Shown here: one piece after another, positions 5,801 through 48,346 of the stretch
How the letters are laid out: each line of letters opens with the position of its first letter
Numbering within the stretch: the first letter of the stretch is position 1
NCBI GenBank assembly: GCA_009392915.1
Contig: CP045477.1
Location: 256,001-320,000, forward strand
DNA: 64,000 bases
Reading direction: 5' to 3'
From: Candidatus Forterrea multitransposorum CG_2015-17_Forterrea_25_41
GTDB taxonomy: Archaea > Iainarchaeota > Iainarchaeia > Iainarchaeales > CSSED10-239
Program-made: the position numbers and the translations under genes
The notes under the pieces: generated by a model
Database searches by the model: none
Seen by the model: only the letters and a program-made list of their open reading frames with translations
What the model was told of the DNA's origin: nothing

Positions 5801-8800
5801 CTTTTGAAATACAAGCTATAAAGTCAAAATATTTTTCTCAGAATGTTTCTTTTACAATCGGAACTGATATTTTAGATGTTTATTCTCAAGAGCAAATATT
5901 ATCTTCTGAAAGTCCACTTGAAGTATTTATTCATAAAACAAATATTAATGGTGAAACTTATTCTTTAACTTTAAAAAACAAAACAAACTATGCTTTAAAA
6001 ATTAATCAATTTAATACTGAAGATTTTTCTTTTAATAAATCTTATTTACTTAATTTAGAGCAAACTGTTAATTATCTTAATAATCAAATAACTTCTCAAG
6101 CAGAAGGTTTTGTAATTCCTGCAAATGAATCTAAAGAAATTGTAATTAAGTTTGCCCCTTCAGATTCTGCAAGAACTCATCCTGTTTCAGAAGATATTTT
6201 AGGTGCAATTACAGGAAATTATTCTTTAAATAATTATGATTATCGTTTTACAATTCCTGTTAAAGCAAAATTTTCTGTTGGAAGTGGTGTTTTATTTGAT
6301 GATTGTTTAGTTGTAACTCAAAGTCCAGGAGAATGGAATACTGTTGTTTCTACAAGTACTCAAACAACTTCTTTTACAATAAAGAATACTTGTCTTTCAA
6401 AAGAAGGAGAAGTCCCAATACCTATTAAAAATGTACAAGCAAAGATATCTTCTCAAGCAGATAGATATGGTGTTTATTTCTTAAACCTTATAGGCCCATC
6501 TTCTTCAAATCAAATACAGTTGTCTGAAAATTACTATAGAGTTGTAATTGATCAAATGGCTCCTGAAGAAGAATATAGAGTTGATTTAACATTTAATACT
6601 AATGGTACAAGATTTGCAGATGTTAAAACAAATATACATCTTAATGCTCAAGTAGAAACTGAAGATGGTTTATCTTTTGTAAATAAAGAACCTAAAGATA
6701 TTTTCTTAAAAACAAATATTTCAATAATGAATCTTAATGATTGTTTTTCATATATTGATCAAAATGGAAAAGTAATTAATTCAGGTGGTCTTTATACTTT
6801 AGAAGGTATTGAAGAAAATGAATTAACTATTAGAAACAATTGTCAAGGAAAAGCTACTTTTAAAATGAATCTTTGTGATGCTTATGATTTAGGTTGTAAT
6901 GATTTAATTATTACAAATACAGATGAAGAAAATAATATTTTAAGATTTTCACTTAACGATTCTGAAAAAACAGTATATATTAAAAAAGATTCAACAAAAG
7001 CACCTGGTGCTTATATTCTTAATAACAGAGTCTCTGTTATAAATAATTTTGAAAGAGAACTTGCATCTTCTTTTGCTCTTTTAAAAATAAATGCAAAAGA
7101 TCCTAATGGTTTATGGATGGAAGATCCTTTTATAGAGATTAATGAAGATAAAGTTTCTGAGATTAAAAGATTATATAATAATAATTTAGAAAAGACTCCT
7201 TGGGATTATGCAAGTTATTATCAAGGAGAAGAAGGTTTTGGAAAATTTATAACAAATATTTATTATACAGGAAATACTTGGAAAAAATCTTTTAATCAAC
7301 ATTGGAGTAGATGTATAGCTGGAGATGATACTTGTTTATTTAACGGGGATAATTCTTTACTTTCAATGAGATTTTTACCAGAAAATCAATTAAGTAATGT
7401 TGGTGCAGAAGGATTAAGTGCAGGTGGTGCAATTGGGATAGGAATTGGTACTGCTGCAATTGTTTCATTAGTTTTAATTATGGCAAAAGTTGCTGTATTA
7501 GGAAGTCTTTTAGGACCTGTCGGTTGGATAGTTGCTGGACTTTCAATTGTTGTTGCATCAATAGCACCATCTTTCTTTTCAGATTATGATGTAGATGTGC
7601 AACCAAGGTTTTTGGATGTTTCTGAAAATAATACTATTGATAATTTAGTTGCTTTAAAAGAAATATCTGTAGATGATTTAAGTGATCAAAAAGAATTAAT
7701 TAATGTATTTGATATTACTGGTGCAAGATATTTTAAATATTTTAATAATGTTATTTTTGCACATGGAAAACTTGCTTCTAAAAAAGAAATTAAAAGTGTA
7801 CTTCCAAAATGTAATGGTATAAATAATTTAGTGCCTGTTGATCAATTTTTAAAAGTATATAATAAACCTCCATTTTGTGATGAAATAACTATAGAAGAAA
7901 CTGAAGATTCTTATATTTATAAAACAAGTTGTAATGGACAAAAATTAAATAGACTTGAATTAAATTTATTCTATAGTGCTTATTCAATATGTAAAAGTGA
8001 TGAAACATATTGGCCAGAACAAGCAGGTATAAAACCTTTACAGTTTAATTTAACTGATGAAATATATAATTTATTAGATAATGATTCTAAAAAATATTAT
8101 TTTAAAAAATATGAATTTAATCCAACTTTAGATGATTCAAATAGCACACAAGATTTAGCTTTTGTAGATTCAGATAGTGTAGGAAATTATAGATTTGGTT
8201 TCTTTTTAACAAAACCTGAAGAAACACCAAATTATGATCTTTCATTACAAGAATGTGTAACTGATACTGGAAGAACTGGAAAAACAGGAGAAGGTGCAGT
8301 TCCAAATATTTCTCTAAATTGGAATTGGGCTGAAACTGATTGTGCACAAACATATTGTGATGCAACTCAATTAACTCAAGATGTTTTAGATAGAATTAAT
8401 GATGCTGAAAAATTAATTTCATCAAATGTTGTTCAATGTCCTATAAGTAATCAAGAACTTTATGACCAAGCATTAAATGGTTCTTATAAAGTAACTGCAG
8501 AACCATCTGATGTTATTAATGAAATACCTGTTGGAAAAGTAGGTATTAATTCTGTAAAATTAGATTCTCAAAATAATAAATTAGCAATAAAAGTAGTTTT
8601 AGAAAACAGATCTGATACACCATCTTCAGGAACTATTGTTATTAGTCTTGATGATAAACAATTAGAATCTATAAAATACAGAGATGTAGCTTCAGGAGAA
8701 TATATTGAAGAAAATATAGATTATCCTGGATCTTATTCAAAAAGTATAACTGTTCCTTCTGGTATTGATAATACTAATGAAATAATTTTTGTTTATAAAG

Positions 8801-10248
8801 AAGGAATTTATGGTGAAGACTTACCTTTAACTATTGATTATTTAGCAACAAATTCACATAGTAATATGTTTGCTTCAAGTGTTGATTTATCAAGTTATCA
8901 AGCAGAAGAAATCAATGAGTGTCAAGTTCCAGCAACAACTGCAAGATTTGATGGAACAAGTTATTTAGATATGTGGCTTAATAAAGAAATGTATCCTGAT
9001 AATGTTGTAGGTTCTGGTTGGTCTCAAACTGATATTACAAAACTTAAAGAACTTTTAGAGTTTGATGCATACTTAATAACAGATAATTATAATAGTAATT
9101 TTAAAAATGACTTTGATATGGCCTTCGGTGGTCTTGCTTCAAAAGAAGATGGAGCTGGAGCTGGAAATTATGCTATAATGTCTTCTCCAACTGTGTTTTC
9201 AAATGGTTATCTTTCTAAATTATTTAAAAACAATTTAATATTTACAAAAGAATATTCAAGTGAAGAAAATGTAAATATTAATGTTCCAGGAAAATATAAA
9301 ATTAAAATTGATTTATTATTTGAAAATGGTTCTTGGAATTTTTATGAAGGTGATGATCTAGATGTAAATGCATTTGTAACTTTTAGATTTATTTCTTCTC
9401 CAGAAACAGATAGTGTTTTCTATAGAATGCCATTTAATGGATTTGTTGGAAAAACAACTTCTGGATATGATAGACAAGGTTATGGTGTTTCTTACTTAGG
9501 AGATTCTATAAGAGTTGATAATGAAAATGTAATTACAGAAGAAGATTATGGTTCAAATTCATTAAGAACAATAACTGTTACAAAATCAAATGATCTTTCA
9601 AGAATTAATTCAAATATTGAAACAAGAGGTAATCTATTAAGTATTAAATATAATCAAACAGACAATGTAGATTTAATATTTACTCCAAGCACACCAATTC
9701 CTTTACTTATGAGTATTGATAAGAGTAATAATAGCCCTCTTAATGTGATTTATAGACTTAAAGATAAGAGTGGTAATGCTATTAGTTCAACTTCTTTATT
9801 AAGATGGACAGGTGTTGGTTCTGGTTGTGACTTTTCTGGTAATTCTATATATAATATGACTTATTATGATAGATATGCTGGAGATGAAGGTGCAGTTTCT
9901 GCATATGTAGTTGATTGGCCACAAGTCTTAAGAACAGGAAAAATATATTTAAGAACTGTTTTCTATAGTCCTGAAAGAGAGTCTTATTCTTTAGAGAATA
10001 GATCTGATCAAGGTGTTATGGTTAAGTTTTCAAAGAATGGAACTAATTATTCTTCTTCAGTTTCTTTAGGTGAAGATGATTTAACAGGCATTAAATCTAT
10101 TTCAGATGTATTTAATTTAATTAAAGATAATAAAGTATGTGTTGTAAATTCATATGATGGAAAAACTTCTGATTTCTTTTATAATCCTTCAGAAATTTTT
10201 ACAGAGAAGTTTACAAAACAACCTTCTGATTCTTTAGAATGTAGTTAA
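2848..10248 (+). CDS. Giant (2466 aa) membrane-anchored surface protein. It has an N-terminal signal-anchor TM, multiple carboxypeptidase-regulatory-like or transthyretin-like beta-sandwich repeats, an internal two-helix TM hairpin (aa ~1520-1575), and the conserved Cys-containing C-terminal module.
   Basis: Long uninterrupted ORF 15 nt after the previous gene, with an AGAGGG RBS-like motif. Hydrophobic segment LTSFFIFLLIILVVLYLIFG. Repeated ...GYxPxxxEL/... beta-sandwich-like units. Gly/Ala-rich hydrophobic hairpin AGGAIGIGIGTAAIVSLVLIMAKVAVLGSLLGPVGWIVAGLSIVVASIAPSFF. C-terminal motifs ECVTDTGRTGKTGEGAVPNISLNW, FYRMPFNGFVGK...RQGYGV, LLRWTGVGSGCDFSG, IYLRTVFYSP, NKVCVVNSYDG. Confidence 0.85.
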   Translation: MSFKDAWQNFLTKIDNRIPIKKITGPLDKKNPLTSFFIFLLIILVVLYLIFGSSITLNNQKLTEVTIRLADSDNNILDNFDFKIRNISDGITNSYVTNSSGSLTLELDLNKKYLLIIDSPNYELLEEEINLSLDSLNFIVTVLDTPINYLKTVYFEDALTNSLIEDSLNVTIRCDNGEIITPNTIDTQSGSVEINVPLECENIYASVRGDRYIEENLEMPITESTFKLESITEILESGRVSISVFSGEDIIQDSITIKIFSVDDSITPINTTQTTNGIGFFNSIPVGEYIVKASDVSNRYLQKQEQVTIIKNSLSEITFDLIDTDTDSPIIIDPDTNQEIVIREVTVFVKDKDSGEIIDSSFDPSVTLLLDGNENIEQRNLNEGFIFNISEDKSYSLKATAEGYIPGEIIPIISGKNTYIFNLEKITISNVSNLNITVQDEDLKPIVGLKSWIYDKDGQYIDPRFDFSTSDENGNIVFENIPDLNFTIKVKNSFIEETSSMYHNSPPEDTNITLPVEIGTGTVNLTVKNKLNDIVSNAQVTFYSESLEVLGSSFASSNGTLENDLKADKRIFIKIEADGYLPYFTELFRIYKNKTVTKEIILERENLSDDVSVEFLGLYNSLDTEVESLKNNEVFYFKFKAIMPVSSQHFNFVFRAGSFTSVTEDIVFIMPQNTSLGIPVYYENEPFNESGNYLESKLVDIEFLGYPASVHEITIPIRIKNAAINERVSFFYDSSINNIDFMSNNFNQLQYFIEATSLCGEDFCFSGQYVDVSQDLRYDISSNNLISTNIHSDYILEYQITNSSSNSFEDVRLSTRNLNNDDNPVAMININSYSISGEATSVGQTIEGENNFNIPFTGDEINLEKINPFSSINYTLNVTPLNLGQSKLTNRIISLQEEIYSLPINFSVSELETMEIDYEPKNIVPGLPFDLLVTVKDTQGEYLEGVNINILQKVRNEYITVSTGKTTDPQGNVIITLPSLRPGETFEIQAIKSKYFSQNVSFTIGTDILDVYSQEQILSSESPLEVFIHKTNINGETYSLTLKNKTNYALKINQFNTEDFSFNKSYLLNLEQTVNYLNNQITSQAEGFVIPANESKEIVIKFAPSDSARTHPVSEDILGAITGNYSLNNYDYRFTIPVKAKFSVGSGVLFDDCLVVTQSPGEWNTVVSTSTQTTSFTIKNTCLSKEGEVPIPIKNVQAKISSQADRYGVYFLNLIGPSSSNQIQLSENYYRVVIDQMAPEEEYRVDLTFNTNGTRFADVKTNIHLNAQVETEDGLSFVNKEPKDIFLKTNISIMNLNDCFSYIDQNGKVINSGGLYTLEGIEENELTIRNNCQGKATFKMNLCDAYDLGCNDLIITNTDEENNILRFSLNDSEKTVYIKKDSTKAPGAYILNNRVSVINNFERELASSFALLKINAKDPNGLWMEDPFIEINEDKVSEIKRLYNNNLEKTPWDYASYYQGEEGFGKFITNIYYTGNTWKKSFNQHWSRCIAGDDTCLFNGDNSLLSMRFLPENQLSNVGAEGLSAGGAIGIGIGTAAIVSLVLIMAKVAVLGSLLGPVGWIVAGLSIVVASIAPSFFSDYDVDVQPRFLDVSENNTIDNLVALKEISVDDLSDQKELINVFDITGARYFKYFNNVIFAHGKLASKKEIKSVLPKCNGINNLVPVDQFLKVYNKPPFCDEITIEETEDSYIYKTSCNGQKLNRLELNLFYSAYSICKSDETYWPEQAGIKPLQFNLTDEIYNLLDNDSKKYYFKKYEFNPTLDDSNSTQDLAFVDSDSVGNYRFGFFLTKPEETPNYDLSLQECVTDTGRTGKTGEGAVPNISLNWNWAETDCAQTYCDATQLTQDVLDRINDAEKLISSNVVQCPISNQELYDQALNGSYKVTAEPSDVINEIPVGKVGINSVKLDSQNNKLAIKVVLENRSDTPSSGTIVISLDDKQLESIKYRDVASGEYIEENIDYPGSYSKSITVPSGIDNTNEIIFVYKEGIYGEDLPLTIDYLATNSHSNMFASSVDLSSYQAEEINECQVPATTARFDGTSYLDMWLNKEMYPDNVVGSGWSQTDITKLKELLEFDAYLITDNYNSNFKNDFDMAFGGLASKEDGAGAGNYAIMSSPTVFSNGYLSKLFKNNLIFTKEYSSEENVNINVPGKYKIKIDLLFENGSWNFYEGDDLDVNAFVTFRFISSPETDSVFYRMPFNGFVGKTTSGYDRQGYGVSYLGDSIRVDNENVITEEDYGSNSLRTITVTKSNDLSRINSNIETRGNLLSIKYNQTDNVDLIFTPSTPIPLLMSIDKSNNSPLNVIYRLKDKSGNAISSTSLLRWTGVGSGCDFSGNSIYNMTYYDRYAGDEGAVSAYVVDWPQVLRTGKIYLRTVFYSPERESYSLENRSDQGVMVKFSKNGTNYSSSVSLGEDDLTGIKSISDVFNLIKDNKVCVVNSYDGKTSDFFYNPSEIFTEKFTKQPSDSLECS

Positions 10249-13133: not shown

Positions 13134-16100
13134 ATGTCAATATTTAAAAAATCAAGAGACAAAATAGAAGCAGAAAAGCTATATGCTCTTTTATCAGACA
13201 AAACTACAAACTATACTCTAGAGGATATTAAAGAGACTATTAAAAAACAAGGTTATTCTGATAAAGTTTCTTCAATTGTTGTAAAGATGATTACAGATAA
13301 TAAACTTCCTTTAAAAGATTCAGTTAATAAAACAAAAACAAAAGAAGAAGTCTTAAAAGAATTATCAGCTTCTGTTGATAAAAACTTCTCTAAACAAAAT
13401 CCAAAAGATTCTTCAAAAGATTCAAAAAAAGAAGATAAAAATAATCAAAAAGAAAATACAAAAAAACAAGAAGATATTAAAAAAGAAGATTCTAAAAAAC
13501 AAAAAGAAGATCTTAAAAAAACAAAAGAAACAAATTTAAAAAATATTAATAAAGTTCCTTTCTTTACAAAAGTAAAAACTTTCTTTAAAAGAATATATTT
13601 CTTTTTTGAAGATAATTACTATAAGATGGTTGATGGTGTAAGTAAAGTTATACCTCTAAACAAATTAACAGACAAAATAGATAAAGTTTTCCCAAGTTTC
13701 ATATTATTCTTATTAATCTTAGCTTTATTGATATATTTAATACTTTCAGGAAGTTTATCTTTCTCTAAAACTTGGACAGTTGCTGTAGAGGTTTATGACC
13801 CATCTTCTGTACCCTTAAAAGATGTTTCTGTAACTTTAATGCTTAAAGATGAAAATTTTTCAACTTTAAAAACAGATATTTTTGGTGAAGTTATTTTTAG
13901 TGATTTTAAATCTAGAAAACAAAATATTAATTTAATAGCTTCTAAAGATAATTATGATACAGTTGAACATTCCTTTAAATTAAGTAAAAGTAATTTAAGA
14001 CAAAAGTTATATCTTCCAACAGATGTAAATTCTAAGATTGATCCTTCAGAAGAAGAAGTAAGAGAAATTTCTTTTGTTGAAAATAATACTGTTTTAATAA
14101 CAGATTCTGTATTAACTACAAATTTTTCTTGTACTAATGCAGATGTAGAACCTAATCCTACAAGAAAAGTTATTTCTTCAGGAAAGGTAACAGTTACAAC
14201 TTATTCTGGTTGTGGTGCTTTAAGAGTTTCTGTAACTTCAGATGATTTTTCTTCAATTACAAATCAAGTTATAAATTCTTCAAATAAAGTAAATCTTACA
14301 AGAATTAATCTTGATAGAGGTAATTTAGGTTTCTCTGTTAAAAACATATCTGGAAGTTCAATTCCTGGAACAGAAGTTAAAGTTTATAGTTCTTCAAACA
14401 CTACTTTTCCTCATGATACAACCACAACTGATCTTTATGGTTTAGGTGAGTTTAGTTTAGAACCTAAAAGTTATTTTTTAACTTTCTCAAAAGAAGGTTA
14501 TCTAACAAATCCTTTAAAAGGTCCTTTAACTGTTATTAAAAATGATTCTGTAAACACAGATGTAGTTTTATTTACTTTAGATGATCTTTTAGAATTTGAT
14601 TGTTCTGATGATAAATATTCACAATTTTGTATTGCTGATGAAATTGATTGTTTTAATCCAAACTTAAAACCATTTTTAATAAATAATGCTGATGGTTCTT
14701 GTACAATTGGAAGACCAGGTTATATTTCTGTAACTTTAAAAGATGTTAATTCTGGAGAACCTGTATATGCAGATATAACTTTAGATTCAAAATTAAAAGA
14801 ATCTGATCAAAACTTTTCTCTTGGTGAACATATTGCAAGGGATACTAATTTCTATACTTTTAATGTTATTGATTTCTATAATTATAGAGTAAGAGTTTTA
14901 AATACAGAAGAGAGTGGTTATCTTCAACCAGATCCAGTCACTGTAAACGGTATTGATCAAAATATAACAGTTAATTTAGAATATTCTTCTTCCCTTAACT
15001 CAGGAGATATTTCAGTAAATGTTAAGAGTGCAGATATGCCTATCTCAAATGCAAGAGTTTATTTATATAAAGAGTTTGAAGATGATTTTGTTTTAGTAAA
15101 TTCTGATCCATTATTTACAAATCAAAATGGAGATGTTAATTTTTATTCTCAAAGAGCAAATAGAGATTATTATGCTTATGCTTTACATAATGTTTTAGAT
15201 AAACAAGGAACTTCACAAACAGATGATTTAGATGTTAACTCAATACTTGATTTATCAATAGATCTTGAAGATATTCCAAAGATATTAAATCTAAAGGTAA
15301 GTCCAAGTATTTCTTATGATATTAATTTTTATAATTCTTCAGATAATCTTGTAACTGAATATGTAAGAACAGATCTTGAAGATGGAAATTCTCTTTATTA
15401 TTTTACAGGTTCTATAAATAAAGTTTATGCAGTTGTTTCTTCTTCAGGTTATACTACCTATCAAACAGATTATATTACTTTAATACCTGATCAAGAAGTT
15501 TATAAAACAGTTAATCTTTCTACACTTTCTTCTTGTGAAGACTCTAAGTTAGAAATTTTAGGTCTTTATGATGGTTCTGGAGTTTTAGAAATTGATAATA
15601 TTGATTTTGTTGAAAATGATTTAGATAAAGAATACAGATTAAAGTTTAAATATATTTCATGTACAGAAGATGAAGAATACAATCAAGCTACTTTAAGACT
15701 TGGAAGACAAGGTTTAATAGATGATGAATATTTATTCTTTGTTTCAGATCAATTTACTTCTCAAGATATAGATGTTACAAGAGGTTATAAATTTTCACAA
15801 GAACATATACCTGACTTTAATTTTGATCTTTTCAATCTTAATTATTCTCAAGATAGATCTTATGATTATTCTGGTGAAGGTTATAAATGGATTGAAATTG
15901 ATTTTGAAAAATTAAATTCTGATATCTTAGAGTTTTCAACTAACTTTAAGTTCAGAGAAGATTCAATTGTTCCTTTTGAAAACTATGTTTTAAATTATAA
16001 ATCATTTGCAAGTATTTATGATGAACTTTATTCTTTTGATCCTGTTTTAAATGAATCTTGGACAGAGATACCAATCTATCCTAATGGTTATTTTTATGCA

Positions 16101-19100
16101 GAAACAAACAAATATTTAATACCTTTTGAAAATACAGATTATATTTATTCTGTAAAATTAAAAGACTGGAATCAAAATCTTTTAGAAGAATATGCTGGTG
16201 GTTATCCTGTATCTATTAATAATTTTTATAAATATGATCTAAGTTATTTATATTTAAATCAAACAGAAAGAAACGGTAGTGTTTTACAATCTTCTCAATA
16301 TACAAATAATAATTTAGATTATTTAAGTTATGGTTATACTTCATCTTTAGGTAACTCAAGTTCAGGAGATACTCAAAATGCTACAAATAACATGACTTCA
16401 TTTTTAATACTTCCAGATTATAATACTCTTCCAGGTTCAACAGATACTACTATAAATCAAGAAATCTATTATCATATTAATGTTGATGATTATAATTATT
16501 CTTTAGATGATATTAATGCAGAGATTGGTTATTATTTAAATACTTATACTCTTTTAGAGCCAAAAGGTTTTTTTGAAAATACTAATTTTTCAGATTCAAG
16601 TATTATTTCTGATGTTTTAGATGAGTACCCTTTAGTTAATACAAGTATTTATTCTTATTTATCTGATGAAAATTTTATATTTAATATTTCAACTAACTTT
16701 TCAGGAAACAGAATAATTATTGGTGAAAATAATTTAGGTTTTAAAGTTTTAGATAATTATGGTTCTCCAGTTTCAAATGTTTTAATAAAGTATAAAGTTG
16801 ATGGTGATGAGCTTATAACTTTAGGGTCTACAAATGAACAAGGTATGCTTAGTGATCAAAATATTTTTATAAATCTTTCAGATATTGGAAAAAATATTAA
16901 TTTTGTATTTTTGTTTTCTCCAGAGTTTGGTTTCCTTGCAAACACAGTTGTAAGAAACAAAGAAATCTATTCTGGATTTTCAATAGTTCCAGAAGATATT
17001 AATTTATCTGCAAGTTATTATATTTTAAATGATCAAGTTATAATTGATCAAGTTTCTACAAATAATTATAATCTTTTAAAAGAAACAAATTATTCAAGCA
17101 CTTTAGAAGAAATTGATTTTGTTGGAGAATCAAGTTTGTTTAATCTTGATTCTATTAAAAATAAAATGATTGAAGATAATAATCTTGTAAAAGATTTATT
17201 AGAAGGAGAAAATGAAATTATTACAAGTCTTTTCTTAAACAATAATATTTCTCAATCAACAAATCTTTTAGGTTATTATAGAAATGAAATTGATATTAAT
17301 AATTCTTTAACACAATTATTAGATATTAATTCAAATGTTGAAATTATTAATCTAGGTTCAATTAACTATGATTTTAATCTTGAAAAACATTTTATGAAAG
17401 GACTATTAATTGAAAACAATAATGTTTCTCTTGAGCTTATAAAAGAAATAAACGAATTAATTACTTTAGATTTAAATCTTTTATCAGATAACTCTCAAGC
17501 AACATTTGATAGTATTTCTGTAGAGCTTCCTGAATTTTTAGATCTTGAAGAATTTAATGAAGGTTATTCTTCTTTAGTTGGAGAGTCTTTAACTTCTGAT
17601 GGTTTAATAATTCCTCTTAACTTTAAGATTAATAACTCCTATTCAGGTTCTCTTCCAACTCCAAAGGAAGATATTAATTTAACTTTTAATGTTTATCTTG
17701 ATGATAAATTAGTTTCTTTTAATAAAATAATTTCAATAAAAGTATATTCTAAAGATGACATCTTTTTAATAGAGTCTGAAGGAGACTTACAGATCTATTG
17801 TACTGTTGAAAATTGTTCTCAAAAAAAATCTTTTACTTTTAAAAAATTAGTTAATAATTATATATTAAATCTAAATAAAGAAATTGAAATCAATGAGATG
17901 GATTTAATTGAAGTTTCAAATCTTTTAAGTAATATTAATTTTATTGACCTTTCTGAAAAGAACAGAGCTTTATCTTTTAGTGCCCTATATAATTCTGTTA
18001 ACGAAGAAAATAAACAAGGTAATTTTGATTTAATTTTTAATATTAATATTTTAAATGATTCTTTTAATATAGAAATACCTATTGATTATTTAATTATAAA
18101 ATATTTAGAAGAAGAAACCATAAGTGAAATTACTTTTAATTCCTGTATTGGTGTTGGTGGTCAAGAAAGCAGTAGTGATTTATTTATTTTAGGTTATTGT
18201 CAAGATACCCAAGATACTTGTAAAACAGGAGAATCTGCTGTTCCAAAAGTATTTTTTAATTGGGCAGAATCTGACCTTTCAACAGATTATGACGGAAAAA
18301 CCTGGAATAATGTCTGTATTGGTAATAGCCAAGATACAATGTCAAGTAAATATGCTTGTGATTCCTTACAAATGTTAATTTCAATTTTTAATAAAATTGA
18401 TAATGGTGTAGAAGAATCATTCTATATTAAACTTTTAAATGATGGAATTTCTGATGCTCTTTTAAAAGATTTTATAAATTATAATACACTTTACTTAGGT
18501 TATGATAAACCTAGTGAAGAGATCTTTTCAGAAGATGCAGTTGATGATGGTTTATTTAAAATAACAATTAATAATTCTCCAGAAATTAAAATTTTCCAAC
18601 CTGGTATCTATAAAGTTTTAGTATATGGTGATGATTCAGGAAATGCATATATGGGAAGAGAAGAAGATCAAATGATAGATATACGTCTAGAAAAGGTAAG
18701 TGATCTTCCTGCATCAGAGATAAGTGTATTCCACTATATGCCATTTAATGGTAATTTAGGTTTAGATGGTACAAGAGAGGGTTACGGTATTAAAAATCAA
18801 GATAGTGATGTTGCTCAATTAACTCAAGATGTTGATATTAATTATATTGATGTTATAGATGAAATAATTCAACTATCTTTAACTAATAATAATCTAGAAA
18901 CTTCTCACTTAACACAAACATTAAAGTCTGAAGGAAAAATACTTGAATTAAATAAATATGATAGTGTTGTTGAAATGATTTATTCTCCTTCATATCCAGT
19001 ACCAATATATTCTCATGTAGCATGTATTGATAAAGATGATTTTAGTTATAATCTTTATGAAAATAATAATGCTTTAGATAATATTATAGGTGGATCATTT

Positions 19101-19577
19101 ATTGATTGGAATTTTAATAATACCATAAGATCAGATGTTAAAACAACAGTAACAGGAGATGTTACTAGATACGTATTTAACAATAATAATTTAGAAGGTT
19201 CTTTAAACCTTAATTCAATGTTATATCTTCCTGTAAAATTAAATATTGATTCTTTAAAACTTAAAACCACAGAGTTTGCAAATAATAAAAATACAACTTT
19301 ATTTACAAAGAATAATTTTACAGGTGTAAATCAAGCAGATTTAGTTTTCTCTGAAGATGATTATGTTCTTGGAAATGATTTAATAAACCTTAATACTATT
19401 AAAGGTTTATTTAATTTTATAAGTCAAGAAAAAGCATGTATTGAAAAATCTATTGATAACACAACTATTAAATGGATTGATGAAAAAGTTAATTTTACAG
19501 AACAAGAATTACTTGATATAAATAGTAATATTCCTTCTGATTATTCTTGTCTTGAAGGAGAGGTAATCATAGATTAA
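13134..19577 (+). CDS. Giant (2147 aa) membrane-anchored surface protein. A ~185-aa Lys/Glu-rich N-terminal region precedes a single TM; beta-sandwich repeats and the shared C-terminal module follow.
   Basis: ORF begins 23 nt after the previous gene. KE-rich low-complexity N-terminus. TM segment FPSFILFLLILALLIYLILSG. Repeats of the ...KEGYLTNP / ...DxxGxVxF type. C-terminal motifs GYCQDTQDTCKTGESAVPKVFFNW, FHYMPFNGNLGLDGTREGYGI, EKACIEKSIDN. The true start could instead be the internal Met just before the TM (MVDGVSKV...). Confidence 0.8.
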   Translation: MSIFKKSRDKIEAEKLYALLSDKTTNYTLEDIKETIKKQGYSDKVSSIVVKMITDNKLPLKDSVNKTKTKEEVLKELSASVDKNFSKQNPKDSSKDSKKEDKNNQKENTKKQEDIKKEDSKKQKEDLKKTKETNLKNINKVPFFTKVKTFFKRIYFFFEDNYYKMVDGVSKVIPLNKLTDKIDKVFPSFILFLLILALLIYLILSGSLSFSKTWTVAVEVYDPSSVPLKDVSVTLMLKDENFSTLKTDIFGEVIFSDFKSRKQNINLIASKDNYDTVEHSFKLSKSNLRQKLYLPTDVNSKIDPSEEEVREISFVENNTVLITDSVLTTNFSCTNADVEPNPTRKVISSGKVTVTTYSGCGALRVSVTSDDFSSITNQVINSSNKVNLTRINLDRGNLGFSVKNISGSSIPGTEVKVYSSSNTTFPHDTTTTDLYGLGEFSLEPKSYFLTFSKEGYLTNPLKGPLTVIKNDSVNTDVVLFTLDDLLEFDCSDDKYSQFCIADEIDCFNPNLKPFLINNADGSCTIGRPGYISVTLKDVNSGEPVYADITLDSKLKESDQNFSLGEHIARDTNFYTFNVIDFYNYRVRVLNTEESGYLQPDPVTVNGIDQNITVNLEYSSSLNSGDISVNVKSADMPISNARVYLYKEFEDDFVLVNSDPLFTNQNGDVNFYSQRANRDYYAYALHNVLDKQGTSQTDDLDVNSILDLSIDLEDIPKILNLKVSPSISYDINFYNSSDNLVTEYVRTDLEDGNSLYYFTGSINKVYAVVSSSGYTTYQTDYITLIPDQEVYKTVNLSTLSSCEDSKLEILGLYDGSGVLEIDNIDFVENDLDKEYRLKFKYISCTEDEEYNQATLRLGRQGLIDDEYLFFVSDQFTSQDIDVTRGYKFSQEHIPDFNFDLFNLNYSQDRSYDYSGEGYKWIEIDFEKLNSDILEFSTNFKFREDSIVPFENYVLNYKSFASIYDELYSFDPVLNESWTEIPIYPNGYFYAETNKYLIPFENTDYIYSVKLKDWNQNLLEEYAGGYPVSINNFYKYDLSYLYLNQTERNGSVLQSSQYTNNNLDYLSYGYTSSLGNSSSGDTQNATNNMTSFLILPDYNTLPGSTDTTINQEIYYHINVDDYNYSLDDINAEIGYYLNTYTLLEPKGFFENTNFSDSSIISDVLDEYPLVNTSIYSYLSDENFIFNISTNFSGNRIIIGENNLGFKVLDNYGSPVSNVLIKYKVDGDELITLGSTNEQGMLSDQNIFINLSDIGKNINFVFLFSPEFGFLANTVVRNKEIYSGFSIVPEDINLSASYYILNDQVIIDQVSTNNYNLLKETNYSSTLEEIDFVGESSLFNLDSIKNKMIEDNNLVKDLLEGENEIITSLFLNNNISQSTNLLGYYRNEIDINNSLTQLLDINSNVEIINLGSINYDFNLEKHFMKGLLIENNNVSLELIKEINELITLDLNLLSDNSQATFDSISVELPEFLDLEEFNEGYSSLVGESLTSDGLIIPLNFKINNSYSGSLPTPKEDINLTFNVYLDDKLVSFNKIISIKVYSKDDIFLIESEGDLQIYCTVENCSQKKSFTFKKLVNNYILNLNKEIEINEMDLIEVSNLLSNINFIDLSEKNRALSFSALYNSVNEENKQGNFDLIFNINILNDSFNIEIPIDYLIIKYLEEETISEITFNSCIGVGGQESSSDLFILGYCQDTQDTCKTGESAVPKVFFNWAESDLSTDYDGKTWNNVCIGNSQDTMSSKYACDSLQMLISIFNKIDNGVEESFYIKLLNDGISDALLKDFINYNTLYLGYDKPSEEIFSEDAVDDGLFKITINNSPEIKIFQPGIYKVLVYGDDSGNAYMGREEDQMIDIRLEKVSDLPASEISVFHYMPFNGNLGLDGTREGYGIKNQDSDVAQLTQDVDINYIDVIDEIIQLSLTNNNLETSHLTQTLKSEGKILELNKYDSVVEMIYSPSYPVPIYSHVACIDKDDFSYNLYENNNALDNIIGGSFIDWNFNNTIRSDVKTTVTGDVTRYVFNNNNLEGSLNLNSMLYLPVKLNIDSLKLKTTEFANNKNTTLFTKNNFTGVNQADLVFSEDDYVLGNDLINLNTIKGLFNFISQEKACIEKSIDNTTIKWIDEKVNFTEQELLDINSNIPSDYSCLEGEVIID

Positions 19578-20314: not shown

Positions 20315-20388
20315 GGATCTATGGTGTAGCCTGGATAGCACGTAGGCTTGCGGAGCCTAAAACTTGGGTTCAAATCCCAATAGATCCG
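20315..20388 (+). tRNA. tRNA-Arg (anticodon GCG), 74 nt, no encoded CCA.
   Basis: Hand-folded cloverleaf. Acceptor GGATCTA/TAGATCC with discriminator G. D-stem GTGT/GCAC. Anticodon stem TAGGC/GCCTA with loop TTGCGGA. T-arm TTGGG-TTCAAAT-CCCAA. Confidence 0.7.
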
Positions 20389-20507
20389 TCTTTATTCTTC
20401 TCTAAATGCCCATAAAATAAGGTTTTTAACACATCTATTTAAAAAGCTTTGGTATTATTAATTAATTAAAACATATAACTTTTATTACATAAAAGGGGGA
20501 ATTAAAA

Positions 20508-20777
20508 ATGAATAAAAGTACTTTAATAGAAGCTGTTGTTAAGAAAACAGATTTATCAAAAGCAAAAGCTGAAGAGTTTATTAATACAACTTTAGAAGCT
20601 ATGAAAGTAATTGTAAAAAAAGAAGGTAAATTACAATTAGTTGGTTTTGGTACATTCAAAGTTAAAAAAAGAGCTGCTAGAATGGGTAGAAATCCACAAA
20701 CAGGAAAATCTATGAAAATAGCTGCTAGTAAAACAGTTTCATTCAAAGTTGGTAAAGAATTTAAAGAGAGATTATAA
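20508..20777 (+). CDS. Bacterial-type DNA-binding protein HU (DNABII family), 89 aa.
   Basis: Protein MNKSTLIEAVVKKTDLSKAKAEEFINTTLEAMKVIVKKEGKLQLVGFGTFKVKKRAARMGRNPQTGKSMKIAASKTVSFKVGKEFKERL shows the HU signature (GFGTF, RxxRxGRNPxTG, beta-arm). Strong SD-like AAGGGGG sits 7 nt upstream of the ATG. Confidence 0.85.
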   Translation: MNKSTLIEAVVKKTDLSKAKAEEFINTTLEAMKVIVKKEGKLQLVGFGTFKVKKRAARMGRNPQTGKSMKIAASKTVSFKVGKEFKERL

Positions 20778-28307: not shown

Positions 28308-28379
28308 AAATTTCTTTAAATTAATAATAAAAGAAATTTGTTTATAAACTTATTGCTTCTATATATATATTGTAGTAAA

Positions 28380-28453
28380 GGGGCTGTGGTGTAGCCTGGT
28401 TAGCATTTAAGCTTTGGGAGCTTACGACCCCCGTTCAAATCGGGGCAGTCCCA
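28380..28453 (+). tRNA. tRNA-Pro (anticodon TGG), 74 nt, no encoded CCA.
   Basis: Acceptor GGGGCTG/CAGTCCC (one G-U pair) with discriminator A. Anticodon stem TAAGC/GCTTA with loop TTTGGGA (G37). T-arm CCCCG-TTCAAAT-CGGGG. Confidence 0.7.
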
Positions 28454-28484
28454 CTCTTTTACTAAACTTCTTTAATAGATTATT

Positions 28485-33421: not shown

Positions 33422-34132
33422 TTAATATTGTTTAATTGATGACCACATAATTTCATCATGTGGATTAATTTCAATTCCTTTTGGTGTTATAAACAAAGGA
33501 TGTACTTTTTGATCATGTTTAGTTCCTCTTAGTTTTCTAATGAAAATTGATCTGTGAGGTGGTATAAAGTAAAGCATAAAAATTCCATCTACAACAAATT
33601 CTTCAACACCAAATGCAGAAAAGTCATGTGGTCCTCCAGAAGTTTCAGCTGTTAGCATAGTTGTACAATCTAAATCTTTTAAATAATCTGAAAATCTAAA
33701 AAGAAGATTTCTTAATTTTCCAGGATCAGTTATCCATGCAGAAAAAGCTGTTGTTGAGTCAATTGTAAGTCTTTTTGCACCAATATCTTTAACCATAGAT
33801 GTTATAATATCAAGTTCTTTATCTATTTGTGGTTCTATTGGTTTTCTTGGGTCAATATGCATTCTGTATATTTTCATTAAATCTCTTTGTTCAAGTGATT
33901 TAATATCCCATCCAAAGTTTTCCATGTTCCAGACAATATTTTTAAGATTGTCTTCAACAGTTACAAAAAGACCTGGTTCTCCGTATTTTTTAGCCCCTTC
34001 ATAAATAAAAGTGGTTGCAAAAATAGTTTTTGCAGAACCTGCACCTCCTGATACTAAGACAGACGCTCCTCTAGGGATTCCTCCATCTATAAGTTCATCA
34101 AAGCCAATAACACCAGTTGGTACTCTATCCAT
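33422..34132 (-). CDS. KaiC/RadB-like RecA-superfamily ATPase (236 aa).
   Basis: MDRVPTGVIGFDELIDGGIPRGASVLVSGGAGSAKT... matches KaiC-domain/COG0467 architecture. The P-loop reads GGAGSAKT (Ala in place of the usual Gly before Lys). Confidence 0.7.
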   Translation of the reverse strand: MDRVPTGVIGFDELIDGGIPRGASVLVSGGAGSAKTIFATTFIYEGAKKYGEPGLFVTVEDNLKNIVWNMENFGWDIKSLEQRDLMKIYRMHIDPRKPIEPQIDKELDIITSMVKDIGAKRLTIDSTTAFSAWITDPGKLRNLLFRFSDYLKDLDCTTMLTAETSGGPHDFSAFGVEEFVVDGIFMLYFIPPHRSIFIRKLRGTKHDQKVHPLFITPKGIEINPHDEIMWSSIKQY

Positions 34133-34463
34133 TTTTAATACACCTTTTTTTAAATATTTGCTTATATATATTAAATATAAACATATAATATAATGTAAGG
34201 TAAGTTATTTAAAAGTTTACTTTATTTTAAACTAATTTTAATAATATTTATAATACATAAAAAACTCTTAAAAAGCTGTTTTTTGAAGTAAAAAACACAT
34301 CTATTTAAAAAGTTTTTGTATGTAAATTACTTTATGCTCTTATTATCATCTCTCTATTTATCTATACCGACGAATTTTACAAAATATATATATTTATCAC
34401 TATTTAAATTTAGAGCAAAAGAGTTTATGAGATTATATTTATAAGTATAGCTTTTTTAAGAAG

Positions 34464-34823
34464 GTGTTTATTTTGGATCAAGAAGATTTTATAATGGAAG
34501 AAGAAAATTTAGAAGAAAAAGATTCTTCAGAAGATGAAGAAAAAGTTTCAAAAGTTAGAAAATTAAGTAAGAACAGAAGACAAAGAAGACTTAAGGATGA
34601 AATTGTACATAATTTTATACCTCTTCACACTATTGCTGATGAAAAAGATTTAGCAGAGCTTTCTTTAAAGAATATATTTGTTGAAAAACTTCCTTTAATT
34701 TTAATTACTGATTCTGCTTTAAGACATTTAGAAGTTAAAGTAGGCGATGTCATTAAAATAAAAAGAAAAAATGAAATCATTGGGGATGTTTATTATTATA
34801 GAAGGGTTGTAGCTGATGAATAA
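34464..34823 (+). CDS. rpoH: DNA-directed RNA polymerase subunit H (Rpb5 homolog) with a ~45-aa charged N-terminal extension. The start may be the GTG at 34464 or the ATG at 34494.
   Basis: C-terminal 75 aa (HNFIPLHTIADEKDLAELSLKNIFVEKLPLILITDSALRHLEVKVGDVIKIKRKNEIIGDVYYYRRVV) match the RpoH fold signature. Sits immediately upstream of rpoB2, as in archaeal RNAP operons. Confidence 0.8.
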   Translation: MFILDQEDFIMEEENLEEKDSSEDEEKVSKVRKLSKNRRQRRLKDEIVHNFIPLHTIADEKDLAELSLKNIFVEKLPLILITDSALRHLEVKVGDVIKIKRKNEIIGDVYYYRRVVADE

Positions 34824-47925: not shown

Positions 47926-48106
47926 AAAACTATTTGTTTTATAATATTCTTCAAACTTTTTCTTGTTTTATTATTTGGACAGTTTATTTTTTTTATTAAA
48001 AATAATTATTTTTAAAAAATATATAACATTTATAAATGTTTACATCTACAGTATATAATATATTTTATTATTCTGCTTTTGCAGAAAAATTGGAGGGAGA
48101 AAAAAA

Positions 48107-48346
48107 ATGGCTGTAAAAAAGAAAGTAGTTGCAAAAAAAGCACCTGCTAAAAAAGCTGTTGTTAAGAAAAAAGCACCTGTTAAAAAAGTAGTTGCTAAAA
48201 AAGCACCAGCTAAAAAAGTAGTTGCAAAAAAAGCACCTGCTAAAAAAGCTGTTGTTAAAAAAGCACCTGCTAAAAAAGTAGTTGCTAAAAAAGCACCAGC
48301 TAAAAAAGTAGTTAAAAAGAAAGCACCTGCTAAAAAGAAAAAATAG
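48107..48346 (+). CDS. Lys/Ala-rich tandem-repeat basic protein (79 aa), with about 6 copies of the KKAPAKKVVA repeat. Histone-H1-tail-like or Hc1-like candidate nucleoid protein.
   Basis: Strong SD GGAGGGAG 8 nt upstream. Protein consists almost entirely of AKKAPAKK(A/V)VV units. 30-nt periodicity at the DNA level. Confidence 0.7.
   Translation: MAVKKKVVAKKAPAKKAVVKKKAPVKKVVAKKAPAKKVVAKKAPAKKAVVKKAPAKKVVAKKAPAKKVVKKKAPAKKKK

What the first reader, a model, noticed from the sequence alone, without database searches (positions are those of the whole stretch)
20428..20446. Identical 19-nt promoter-like element (AACACATCTATTTAAAAAG) upstream of HU and again in the rpoH/KaiC-like intergenic region (34294..34312)
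The same 19-mer occurs 62 nt upstream of the HU start and in the intergenic region between the divergent KaiC-like gene and rpoH (the head of the RNA polymerase operon). It contains a TATA-like TATTTAAAA core with a conserved upstream ACACATC, which fits an archaeal BRE+TATA arrangement. An exact 19-nt repeat is very unlikely by chance even in AT-rich DNA. This suggests a shared, probably strong or co-regulated promoter or regulator-binding site. The second copy lies about 150 nt from rpoH, and a TATA-like ATATTTATAA sits 25-30 nt before the rpoH GTG, so the 19-mer there may instead drive a short upstream transcript. A 36-aa ORF at 34334..34444 follows it.
Basis: seen in the sequence. Interest (0 to 1): 0.5.

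Follow-up and report, generated by a model that had tools for sequence, protein, structure and literature searches.

The report
Shared promoter for HU and RNA-polymerase operon
The repeated 19-mer is the core (TATA box plus upstream flank) of two related promoters in a tiny DPANN archaeon: one drives the HU chromatin gene, and the other sits exactly 30 nt before a conserved, unannotated small ORF that heads the RNA-polymerase operon. This is an ordinary kind of element with a modestly new detail.

Summary
AACACATCTATTTAAAAAG occurs exactly twice, at 20428-20446 and 34294-34312, both on the + strand and both intergenic. There is no third copy even at 3 mismatches.

The claim that chance cannot explain it is overstated. 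Across the whole 25%-GC window, a repeat this informative arises in about a quarter of simulations. Within the 4.6 kb of intergenic DNA it arose in 0 of 300.

The stronger evidence is comparative. The organism is a Candidatus Iainarchaeum (DPANN).
- The HU-upstream block is kept at the orthologous position in 7 species, with the TATA box invariant and the 19-mer exact in 3.
- The rpoH-upstream block is kept in 10 species.
- In all 10, its TATA box starts 30-31 nt before an ATG that opens a 34-55-codon ORF (MLLLSSLYLS...). This ORF lies just upstream of rpoH and stays with rpoH when the neighbouring genes change.
- A matrix built from 12 sites finds only these two sites in 74 kb of this genome, so it is neither a dispersed repeat nor the generic promoter.

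Best reading: two promoters share one extended architecture. Copy 1 drives HU. Copy 2 drives a leaderless small ORF as the first cistron of the rpoH operon. A shared regulator is possible but not shown. No transcription start sites were mapped.

The parts
20428..20446 (+). 19-mer copy 1, the core of the HU promoter. It comprises the upstream flank AACACATCTA, the TATA box TTTAAAAA (20438-20445) and a G at 20446.
   Evidence: Exact match. The 19-mer is exact in species L006 and L019 and in strains L001, L002 and L009. It has 2 mismatches in L005 and is degenerate in L022, L011 and L021. TTTAAAAA is invariant in all 7 species.
20418..20468 (+). Extended HU promoter region. It includes AAGG-N5-AAC upstream and GCTTTGGTAT downstream. 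The transcription start is predicted at about A20468, 30 nt after the first T of the TATA box.
   Evidence: Alignment A5 and the comparison anchored on the TATA box. The start position is inferred from geometry only.
20508..20777 (+). HU (bacterial-type DNA-binding protein) gene. It has a Shine-Dalgarno GGGGG at 20495-20499, and an oligo-T tract follows the stop codon.
   Evidence: Pfam PF00216, E 3.6e-30; sequence.
20315..20388 (+). tRNA-Arg(GCG) upstream of copy 1. It is not tied to the motif.
   Evidence: ARAGORN and Rfam. In L011 and L021 the tRNA is absent upstream of HU but the promoter block remains.
34294..34312 (+). 19-mer copy 2, the core of the promoter for the small ORF and rpoH operon. 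The TATA box TTTAAAAA is at 34304-34311.
   Evidence: Exact match. The orthologous block is kept in 10 species, with the TATA box as TTTATAAA, TTTATATA or TTTTTAAA.
34279..34333 (+). Extended promoter of the small ORF: T-run, GAAG, A-run, AAC, then ACATCTA, the TATA box, GTTTTTG, and AATTACTTT just before the start.
   Evidence: Alignments. The strain L007 varies in the flanks but not in this block.
34334..34444 (+). Unannotated 36-codon small ORF (MLLLSSLYLSIPTNFTKYIYLSLFKFRAKEFMRLYL). No Shine-Dalgarno sequence precedes it, and its ATG sits at the predicted transcription start, so it is probably leaderless.
   Evidence: The frame is open for 34-55 codons in 10 of 10 species. The N-terminus is conserved. 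Indels between close relatives are multiples of 3. Per-species shuffle P values are 0.006-0.08. It was not called by the gene callers. It has no Pfam hit and no hit in the protein database.
34463..34823 (+). rpoH (Rpb5-like RNA polymerase subunit). The Shine-Dalgarno GGTG is at 34463-34466 and the TTG start at 34473. rpoB'', rpoB', rpoA' and rpoA'' follow.
   Evidence: Pfam. A gene call of 116 aa. GGTGTTTATTTTGG is conserved in most species.
34193..34221 (-). A separate conserved promoter-like block for the divergent KaiC-like gene. On the minus strand it reads AAACTTTTAAATAACTTACCTTACAT.
   Evidence: Conserved in the window, L005, L019 and L006. It shows that copy 2 is not needed for the KaiC-like gene.

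Best explanation
The two 19-mers are the cores of two genuine archaeal promoters that share one extended architecture in the genus Candidatus Iainarchaeum. That architecture is roughly RARG-N5-AAC-(A/C)N(A/T)TCTA-TTTAWAAA-G-NTTT. TBP would bind the TATA box TTTAAAAA. TFB would contact the flanks on both sides.

**Copy 1.** It would initiate at about 20468 and give a monocistronic HU mRNA with a leader of about 40 nt that carries a Shine-Dalgarno sequence.

**Copy 2.** It would initiate at or next to the A of the ATG at 34334. The transcript would be a leaderless mRNA whose first cistron is a conserved 36-codon small ORF. It would continue into rpoH and the RNA polymerase genes. The small ORF stops 18 nt before the rpoH Shine-Dalgarno sequence.

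**Why the 19 nt are exactly identical here.** In this one species the identity is the extreme of a genus-wide resemblance. It was reached by a few lineage-specific substitutions in copy 2: TTTATAAA became TTTAAAAA, and the two bases before it changed.

**What is shown.** The positions, the conservation, the spacing, the open frame and the restriction to two sites.

**What is inferred.** That these blocks are active promoters, the start sites, translation of the small ORF, and read-through into rpoH.
For: 1. **Footprints.** In the HU upstream region only the TATA box, its upstream flank and the Shine-Dalgarno sequence are conserved across 7 species whose alanyl-tRNA synthetase (AlaRS) is 69-88% identical to the window's. 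TTTAAAAA is invariant.
2. **The motif follows HU, not the tRNA.** It remains upstream of HU where tRNA-Arg is absent, in L011 and L021.
3. **Fixed spacing.** Upstream of rpoH, the TATA box lies 30-31 nt from a conserved ATG in 10 of 10 species, down to 61% RpoB'' identity. This matches the usual archaeal TATA position of about 28 nt upstream of the start site (abstract of PMC8553660).
4. **The small ORF is real.** It is open for 34-55 codons in 10 of 10 species, while the other two frames close after 3-38 codons. Shuffle P values per species are 0.006-0.08 in lineages whose downstream sequence cannot be aligned. In the first 10 codons there are 4 synonymous changes and 1 conservative change.
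5. **Linkage to rpoH.** The small ORF and its promoter stay with rpoH when the KaiC-like gene is separated by an inserted restriction-modification system (L144), and when the upstream gene is an MFS transporter (L145 and L146).
6. **rpoH needs an upstream start.** It has a conserved Shine-Dalgarno sequence (GGTG) and a TTG or ATG start.
7. **Not generic and not dispersed.** A 29-nt matrix scores the two sites at 37.0 and 28.6 bits, and the next best site at 14.4 bits. Nothing else appears in the window, in 10 kb beyond it, or in the syntenic 20-kb loci of relatives. The conserved tRNA-Pro and KaiC promoters have different flanks.
8. **Resemblance above background.** HU and small-ORF promoters share 30 of 44 nt in the window, and 24.1 of 44 on average when paired across species. 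Other TATA-anchored sequences score 18.7 +/- 2.7.
Against: - No transcription start, RNA or protein data exist. Everything rests on sequence.
- The flank directly upstream of the TATA box (CATCTA) is not the purine-rich BRE of model archaea.
- On the minus strand the same DNA reads AAAAAC/AAAGC followed by TTTTTAAATA, which also looks promoter-like. Orientation therefore rests on context alone.
- Most first genes in this genome carry a Shine-Dalgarno sequence, so a leaderless gene would be unusual here.
- The first 36 nt of the small ORF are more conserved than coding alone predicts. Of 8 codons with an invariant amino acid, 6 are identical in all 7 species, against 22% in the KaiC-like gene. 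The ORF also uses CTC, which is 0.4% of Leu codons. Some nucleotide-level function is therefore unexplained.
- A T6 run (34453-34458) lies between the small ORF and rpoH and could terminate some transcripts.
- Only about 11% of the genome could be scanned.
Confidence: 0.72

Rival explanations
1. The shared part outside the TATA box (AAC-ACATCTA upstream, G-NTTT downstream, perhaps with AGG about 10 nt further up) is the binding site of a specific transcription factor. That factor would coordinate HU and RNA polymerase expression. This adds to the promoter reading rather than replacing it.
For: The motif is restricted to these two promoters among roughly 25 transcription units in the window. 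Other conserved promoters (tRNA-Pro and KaiC) lack it. The shared flanks persist across species. In the small-ORF promoters an inverted repeat AAAAC-N15-17-GTTTT brackets the TATA box.
Against: There is no clear dyad in the HU copy. The flank degenerates in L005, L011 and L021 while the TATA box and the spacing are kept. No regulon beyond two sites could be found, and no candidate factor was identified. Within-species similarity between the two promoters (26.2 of 44) is barely above the cross-species value (24.1 of 44), so there is no strong sign of co-evolution.
Confidence: 0.25
2. The exact identity is coincidence. Two unrelated AT-rich promoters happen to share 19 nt, and there is no common architecture.
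For: Across the whole window such a repeat is not rare. Other 19-20-mer repeats exist. In the closest sister species, L005, the two promoters share only 24 of 44 nt.
Against: Of 300 intergenic simulations, none reach it. The two promoters share 30 of 44 nt against a background of 18.7 +/- 2.7. Cross-species pairs reach 33 of 44. AACACATC occurs in both promoters of L006 as well.
Confidence: 0.1
3. Recent gene conversion or duplication copied the HU promoter core onto the rpoH-upstream promoter in this species.
For: All three differences between the window's copy 2 and the L006 orthologue move it towards the HU sequence. The ancestral TATA box of copy 2 is TTTATAAA in 8 of the other 9 species.
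Against: The identity stops after 19 nt (26 of 28), with no long converted tract. Three point substitutions are enough to explain it. There is no general excess of within-species similarity.
Confidence: 0.1
4. Copy 2 drives a small non-coding RNA or a long regulatory 5' leader, not a translated small ORF. The conserved CU-rich 5' block would act as RNA or as a DNA operator.
For: Nucleotide conservation of +1 to +36 exceeds what coding predicts. It uses very rare codons (CTC 0.4%, TCG 0%). The region from -12 to -1 is conserved too. The part after residue 12 is poorly conserved and reads like translated AT-rich DNA.
Against: There is no Rfam match. Folding is no better than shuffled sequence, z = +1.3. 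RNAalifold finds no consensus pairs. The frame stays open in 10 of 10 species. In distant relatives the peptide pattern is kept (MLLL[SI]S.., MFLFFT..) while the nucleotides change.
Confidence: 0.15
5. The element works on the minus strand or in both directions. Read on the minus strand, AAAAAC/AAAGC followed by TTTTTAAATA resembles the KaiC-type AAAC-TTTTAAAT promoter.
For: The TATA box is nearly symmetric. The conserved G-NTTT downstream reads as AAAnC directly next to the TATA box on the minus strand.
Against: At copy 1 this would transcribe the antisense strand of tRNA-Arg. The KaiC-like gene has its own conserved promoter block closer to its start. The fixed 30-nt spacing to a conserved ATG exists only on the + strand. 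In L144-L146 no minus-strand gene lies upstream.
Confidence: 0.08

Closest known systems
Archaeal TBP/TFB-dependent core promoter (TATA box with flanking BRE, initiator)
   Same: It has an 8-bp AT-rich TATA box. It sits at -30 to -23 relative to a pyrimidine/purine step, TA, at the predicted start. It is conserved in position upstream of genes, and an AT-rich proximal region follows it.
   Different: The 6 nt directly upstream (CATCTA) are not the purine-rich BRE of Sulfolobus, Pyrococcus or the methanogens. The conserved flank reaches about -52, and a conserved G-NTTT follows the TATA box. The architecture is shared by only two promoters in the sequence examined.
Leaderless archaeal mRNAs (transcription starts at or within a few nt of the start codon)
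   Same: No Shine-Dalgarno sequence lies upstream of ATG 34334. The spacing from the TATA box to the ATG is the classical 30 nt in all 10 species.
   Different: The start site is not mapped. Most other genes in this genome, including first genes, have Shine-Dalgarno sequences. The cistron is only 34-55 codons long and is followed by a gene with its own Shine-Dalgarno sequence.
Bacterial leader peptides and upstream ORFs of biosynthetic or ribosomal operons (for example leuL-type attenuation)
   Same: It is a short ORF immediately upstream of an operon. It has a Leu/Ser-rich N-terminus with very rare codons and a stop codon close to the next gene's ribosome-binding site.
   Different: There are no conserved alternative RNA hairpins. 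No such attenuation is known in archaea. In half of the species the peptide looks like a transmembrane helix.
The archaeal rpoH-rpoB-rpoA RNA polymerase gene cluster, followed by L30e/L7Ae, S12, S7 and EF-2
   Same: The gene order rpoH, rpoB'', rpoB', rpoA', rpoA'', L7Ae-family, S12, S7, EF-2 is present.
   Different: A conserved unannotated small ORF precedes rpoH in this clade. To my knowledge this has not been described, and a literature search found nothing on Iainarchaeum promoters.

Membership tests
Archaeal TATA/BRE core promoter | An AT-rich 8-bp TATA box about 26-28 nt upstream of the start site | tested here: met
   TTTAAAAA is at 34304-34311, 30 nt (first T) before ATG 34334. The same 30-31 nt spacing holds in 10 of 10 species. 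TTTAAAAA is invariant upstream of HU in 7 species. The start site itself is inferred.
Archaeal TATA/BRE core promoter | A purine-rich BRE directly upstream of the TATA box | tested here: not met
   The 6-7 nt upstream are (A)CATCTA, pyrimidine-rich and variable between species (TCCC, TCTC, ACAG, AAGG). An A-run followed by AAC lies further upstream, at about -47 to -38.
Archaeal TATA/BRE core promoter | Binding by TBP and TFB and initiation by RNA polymerase | not testable with these tools
   This needs in vitro transcription or footprinting, or start-site mapping.
Leaderless mRNA | No Shine-Dalgarno sequence upstream of the start codon | tested here: met
   The sequence upstream of the ATG is GTAAATTACTTT, with no GGTG or GGAGG. 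rpoH, HU and the KaiC-like gene all have GGTG or GGGGG.
Leaderless mRNA | A 5' end within 0-5 nt of the start codon | not testable with these tools
   Only the promoter geometry supports it.
Translated small ORF (small protein gene) | The reading frame is kept open and the substitution pattern is biased towards synonymous or conservative changes across species | tested here: met
   Open for 34-55 codons in 10 of 10 species. Per-species P values are 0.006-0.08. There are 4 synonymous changes to 1 conservative change in codons 1-10. Indels between close relatives are multiples of 3.
Translated small ORF (small protein gene) | Normal codon usage for the genome | tested here: not met
   Codons 2 and 7 are CTC, which is 0.4% of Leu codons. 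TCG, at 0% of Ser codons, appears in two species.
Leader-peptide attenuator | Conserved alternative RNA hairpins or a terminator between the leader ORF and the operon | tested here: not met
   RNAalifold finds 0 consensus pairs. The single-sequence fold has z = +1.3. No intrinsic-terminator-like site was found. Only a T6 run is present.
Structured non-coding RNA family | A match to a known covariance model, or a conserved structure | tested here: not met
   Rfam at gathering thresholds finds only 3 tRNAs in the window. A permissive local scan gives only hits at E above 5. There is no consensus structure.
Dispersed repeat, mobile-element end or att site | Many copies, or direct repeats flanking an integrated element with an integrase | tested here: not met
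   There are only 2 copies at up to 3 mismatches in 64 kb. No further copies appear in the loci. The 13.8 kb between the copies holds the tRNA synthetases for His, Ala and Pro, DNA ligase and tRNAs, in conserved synteny.
Palindromic transcription-factor operator | Dyad symmetry shared by all sites | tested here: inconclusive
   AAAAC-N15-17-GTTTT brackets the TATA box in the small-ORF promoters. The HU copy has only AAAGCTTT, or TTTTTAA paired with TTAAAAA. In DNA this AT-rich, such repeats are weak evidence.

The most novel reading that the evidence does not exclude
The conserved leaderless small ORF is a regulatory leader peptide. Its Leu/Ser-rich N-terminus, written in extremely rare codons (CTC, TCG), would let ribosome progress on the first cistron set how much rpoH and RNA polymerase is made. 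This could work through translational coupling or through termination at the T-run. The shared upstream element would be the site of one regulator that ties synthesis of the chromatin protein HU to synthesis of RNA polymerase in a genome of about 0.66 Mb. That would be an attenuation-like control of the transcription machinery, a type not described in archaea.
Probability: 0.08. Interest if true: 0.7.

Novelty: new member of a known kind. Interest (0 to 1): 0.33.

Why it matters
Promoters of DPANN archaea have essentially not been described, because these organisms are uncultured and no start-site maps exist for them. This pair gives a concrete, testable promoter architecture for Candidatus Iainarchaeum. 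It also marks the likely start of the RNA polymerase operon.

The work reveals a small ORF that gene callers miss and that is absent from a database of 5.8 billion proteins. The ORF is conserved immediately upstream of rpoH across a clade whose RpoB'' has diverged to 61% identity.

If the shared flanks are a regulator site, they would link chromatin protein and RNA polymerase expression in a minimal genome. If not, this is simply a correct promoter call plus one new small gene to annotate.

Tried and rejected
- **Integrated element bounded by direct repeats next to tRNA-Arg.** Rejected. The interval carries housekeeping tRNA synthetases in conserved synteny and no integrase.
- **Structured RNA downstream of copy 2.** Rfam at gathering and permissive thresholds, a single-sequence fold and RNAalifold were all negative.
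- **Sigma-70 promoter and terminator scan.** Not informative for an archaeon.
- **Generic promoter consensus.** The loose pattern AACA-N3-8-TTTAWAAA gave 12 hits, mostly in coding DNA. The position matrix found no third site. The tRNA and KaiC promoters have other flanks.
- **Genome-wide census.** Nearly all 120 loci were chance hits in unrelated contigs, and only L047 (HU) and L117 (small ORF) were Iainarchaeum. The census therefore failed.
- **Homologues of the small ORF.** The alignment query gave no hit at E up to 10, and Pfam gave nothing.
- **Look-ups that found nothing.** The 119-aa rpoH model starting at GTG and the first ORF of the window are not on record.
- **Concerted evolution of the two promoters.** Within-species similarity was hardly above cross-species similarity.
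- **Pairing of the CU-rich 5' block with the rpoH Shine-Dalgarno region.** Inspected by eye only. No convincing complementarity was seen, and it was not pursued.

Full report
**Observation.** The 19-mer AACACATCTATTTAAAAAG is present exactly at 20428-20446 and 34294-34312, both on the + strand. No further match exists on either strand, even with 3 mismatches (sequence).
- Copy 1 lies between tRNA-Arg (20315-20388) and a bacterial-type HU gene (20508-20777; PF00216, E 3.6e-30).
- Copy 2 lies in the 331-nt spacer between a KaiC-like ATPase gene on the minus strand (33422-34132) and rpoH, which heads rpoB'', rpoB' and rpoA'.
- Similarity runs past the 19-mer, at 26 of 28 nt.

**Is it more than chance?** The window is 25.1% GC.
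- Markov simulations of the whole window give about 1.2 exact 19-mer pairs, and 55% of simulations have at least one.
- About 10 of 40 simulations contain a repeat at least as informative as this one, 33.5 bits. Several other 19-20-mer repeats exist in the real sequence.
- Restricted to the 4.6 kb of intergenic DNA (18.5% GC), none of 300 simulations at orders 1-3 reach it.
- Anchored on the TATA box, the two sites share 30 of 44 nt. The 176 other TTTAWAAA boxes in the window score 18.7 +/- 2.7, with a maximum of 27.

**Source and relatives.** The HU protein maps to a 663,621-bp contig, JGI 3300007985 Ga0100381_1000002.
- A scan of species-representative genomes with the alanyl-tRNA synthetase (AlaRS) names the lineage Candidatus Iainarchaeum / Diapherotrites (DPANN). 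It returned syntenic loci with 88% (L005), 80% (L006) and 69% (L011) AlaRS identity, plus same-species contigs.
- More relatives came from AlaRS homologues: L019 at 82%, L020 at 70%, L021 at 69% and L022 at 71%.
- Still more distant ones came from RpoB'' homologues: L144 at 76%, L145 at 68% and L146 at 61% RpoB'' identity.

**Copy 1, the HU promoter.** In the alignment of HU upstream regions from 7 species, most of the spacer is not conserved. TTTAAAAA is invariant, and so is the Shine-Dalgarno sequence.
- The 19-mer is exact in L006 and L019.
- Variants are AACAGATCTATTTAAAAAT (L005), AACATATCTATTTAAAAAC (L022) and AACA--AAGGTTTAAAAAG (L011 and L021).
- In L011 and L021 there is no tRNA-Arg upstream of HU, so the block belongs to HU and not to the tRNA.
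- With the TATA box at 20438-20445, the expected start is near A20468. This gives a leader of about 40 nt that carries the GGGGG Shine-Dalgarno sequence. A long oligo-T tract follows the HU stop codon.

**Copy 2, the promoter of a small ORF and the rpoH operon.** Downstream of copy 2 lies the most conserved part of the spacer: AATTACTTT-ATGCTCTTATTATCATCTCTCTATTTATCT.
- The ATG at 34334 is exactly 30 nt from the first T of TTTAAAAA (34304). The same 30-31 nt spacing between a TATA box (TTTATAAA, TTTATATA or TTTTTAAA) and this ATG holds in all 10 species. This is the geometry of an archaeal leaderless gene, since the TATA box lies about 28 nt upstream of the start site (abstract of PMC8553660).
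- The ATG opens a frame of 36, 35, 34, 39, 46, 55, 54, 47, 44 and 47 codons in the ten species. The other two frames close after 3-38 codons. Shuffling the sequence beyond codon 12 gives P = 0.006-0.08 per species, in lineages whose downstream sequences cannot be aligned to one another.
- The N-terminus is MLLLSSLYLS within the genus. In the distant relatives it is MLLLISVYLY, MLLLISAHLW and MFLFFTLYSL.
- Within the genus, the changes in codons 1-10 are four synonymous and one Leu-to-Phe.
- Gene callers did not call this ORF in any locus. It has no Pfam match and no relative in the 5.8-billion-protein collection.
- The ORF and its promoter stay immediately upstream of rpoH when a restriction-modification system separates the KaiC-like gene from rpoH (L144), and when the upstream neighbour is an MFS transporter gene (L145 and L146).
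- rpoH itself starts at TTG 34473, which is ATG in L006. It is preceded by the conserved block GGTGTTTATTTTGG, so its mRNA must start upstream of 34463.
- The small ORF's stop codon (34442-34444) is 18 nt before that Shine-Dalgarno sequence. The spacing is about 8-20 nt in six of the ten species.
Initiation from it would fall downstream of the Shine-Dalgarno sequence.
- The KaiC-like gene has its own conserved promoter-like block at 34193-34221.

**Not generic and not a repeat.** A 29-nt position matrix built from 12 sites scores the two window sites at 37.0 and 28.6 bits, and the next best site at 14.4 bits.
- It finds only the orthologous sites in every Iainarchaeum locus.
- It finds nothing in 10 kb beyond the window end.
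- Conserved promoters of tRNA-Pro (TTTGTTTATAAACTTATTGCTTC) and the KaiC-like gene (TAAACTTTTAAATAAC) have different flanks.
- The 13.8 kb between the copies carries the histidyl-, alanyl- and prolyl-tRNA synthetases and DNA ligase in conserved order. It is therefore not an inserted element.

**Shared architecture.** Across species both promoters fit (A/G)A(G/A)G-N5-AAC-(A/C)N(A/T)TCTA-TTTAWAAA-G-NTTT.
- HU and small-ORF promoters from different species share 24.1 of 44 positions on average, and up to 33. This is above the background.
- Within-species pairs are barely more alike, at 26.2 of 44. Concerted evolution or gene conversion is therefore not needed.
- The exact identity in this species comes from a few substitutions in copy 2 that moved it towards the HU form. 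The TATA box of copy 2 is TTTATAAA in 8 of the other 9 species.
- The 6 nt before the TATA box are not a canonical purine-rich BRE. What reads the flanks, TFB or an additional factor, is unknown.

**Unexplained.** The first 36 nt of the small ORF, and the 12 nt before it, are conserved beyond what a peptide would require.
- Of 8 codons with an invariant amino acid, 6 are identical in all seven genus members, against 22% in the neighbouring KaiC-like gene.
- The block uses CTC twice, although CTC is 0.4% of Leu codons in this genome.
- No RNA structure explains this, and there is no Rfam hit.
- The peptide is transmembrane-like in five species (19-residue Kyte-Doolittle hydropathy 1.9-2.4). It is not in the window's subclade, where the value is 0.5-1.1.
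- A regulatory leader-peptide role is conceivable but unsupported.

**Limits.**
- No transcription start, RNA or protein data were available.
- The genome-wide census failed. Only about 74 kb of the roughly 660-kb genome, plus syntenic loci of relatives, were examined.
- Literature searches found nothing on Iainarchaeum promoters.

**Verdict.** It is a known kind of element, an archaeal TATA promoter, with an unusual extended flank shared by the HU and RNA polymerase-operon promoters. It also points to a conserved, unannotated, probably leaderless small ORF ahead of rpoH. The finding is useful for annotation and moderately interesting, but not categorically new.

Noticed in passing
window 48107-48346 (+); DNA repeats at 48122-48336: An unlisted 79-aa ORF encodes a highly basic protein built of Lys/Ala/Val/Pro repeats (MAVKKKVVAKKAPAKKAVVKK...). 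The gene consists of tandem DNA repeats, with exact repeats of 43-44 nt. It looks like a histone-H1-like or AKKA-repeat DNA-binding protein. Its upstream region holds a perfect palindrome around a TATA box, AACATTTATAAATGTT, at 48025-48040.
   Followed up: partly
window 34463-34475: rpoH most likely starts at TTG 34473 (116 aa), not GTG 34464. GGTG at 34463-34466 is the Shine-Dalgarno sequence. The block GGTGTTTATTTTGG is conserved across most species, and L006 has ATG at the same place.
   Followed up: yes
window 34193-34221 (minus strand): A conserved promoter-like block for the KaiC-like gene, AAACTTTTAAATAACTTACCTTACAT, is kept in four species.
   Followed up: partly
window about 28337-28365, upstream of tRNA-Pro (28380-28454): A strongly conserved tRNA-Pro promoter block, TTTGTTTATAAACTTATTGCTTCTATAT, is present in 8 species. 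Its distance from the tRNA varies from about 39 to 68 nt.
   Followed up: partly
window 2848-10248 and 13134-19577; also 322-2832: Giant ORFs of 2466 and 2147 aa, with faint Big_1 and CarboxypepD_reg hits, share exact 18-20-nt repeats with each other and with the 836-aa ORF (1892/18733, 8366/18814, 1939/9472). They are probably paralogous surface proteins.
   Followed up: no
L002 10424-11770; L019 4846-6168; L022 1898-3271; L144 7028-9303: There is a variable gene insertion next to the conserved promoters. A serpin gene lies downstream of HU in some strains and species but not in the window. A restriction-modification pair (N6_N4 methyltransferase plus CfrBI-like endonuclease) is inserted between the KaiC-like gene and the small ORF/rpoH in L144.
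   Followed up: no
window 20508-20777: A bacterial-type HU (PF00216) is the chromatin-protein candidate in this archaeon. It is 67-93% identical across the genus and is found in 158 blocks of the public collection, so the organism is widespread.
   Followed up: no
window 34334-34369: The small ORF uses CTC at codons 2 and 7. CTC is 0.4% of Leu codons in the large genes of this window. Relatives use TCG, which is 0% of Ser codons. The block has no G from +4 to +30.
   Followed up: partly
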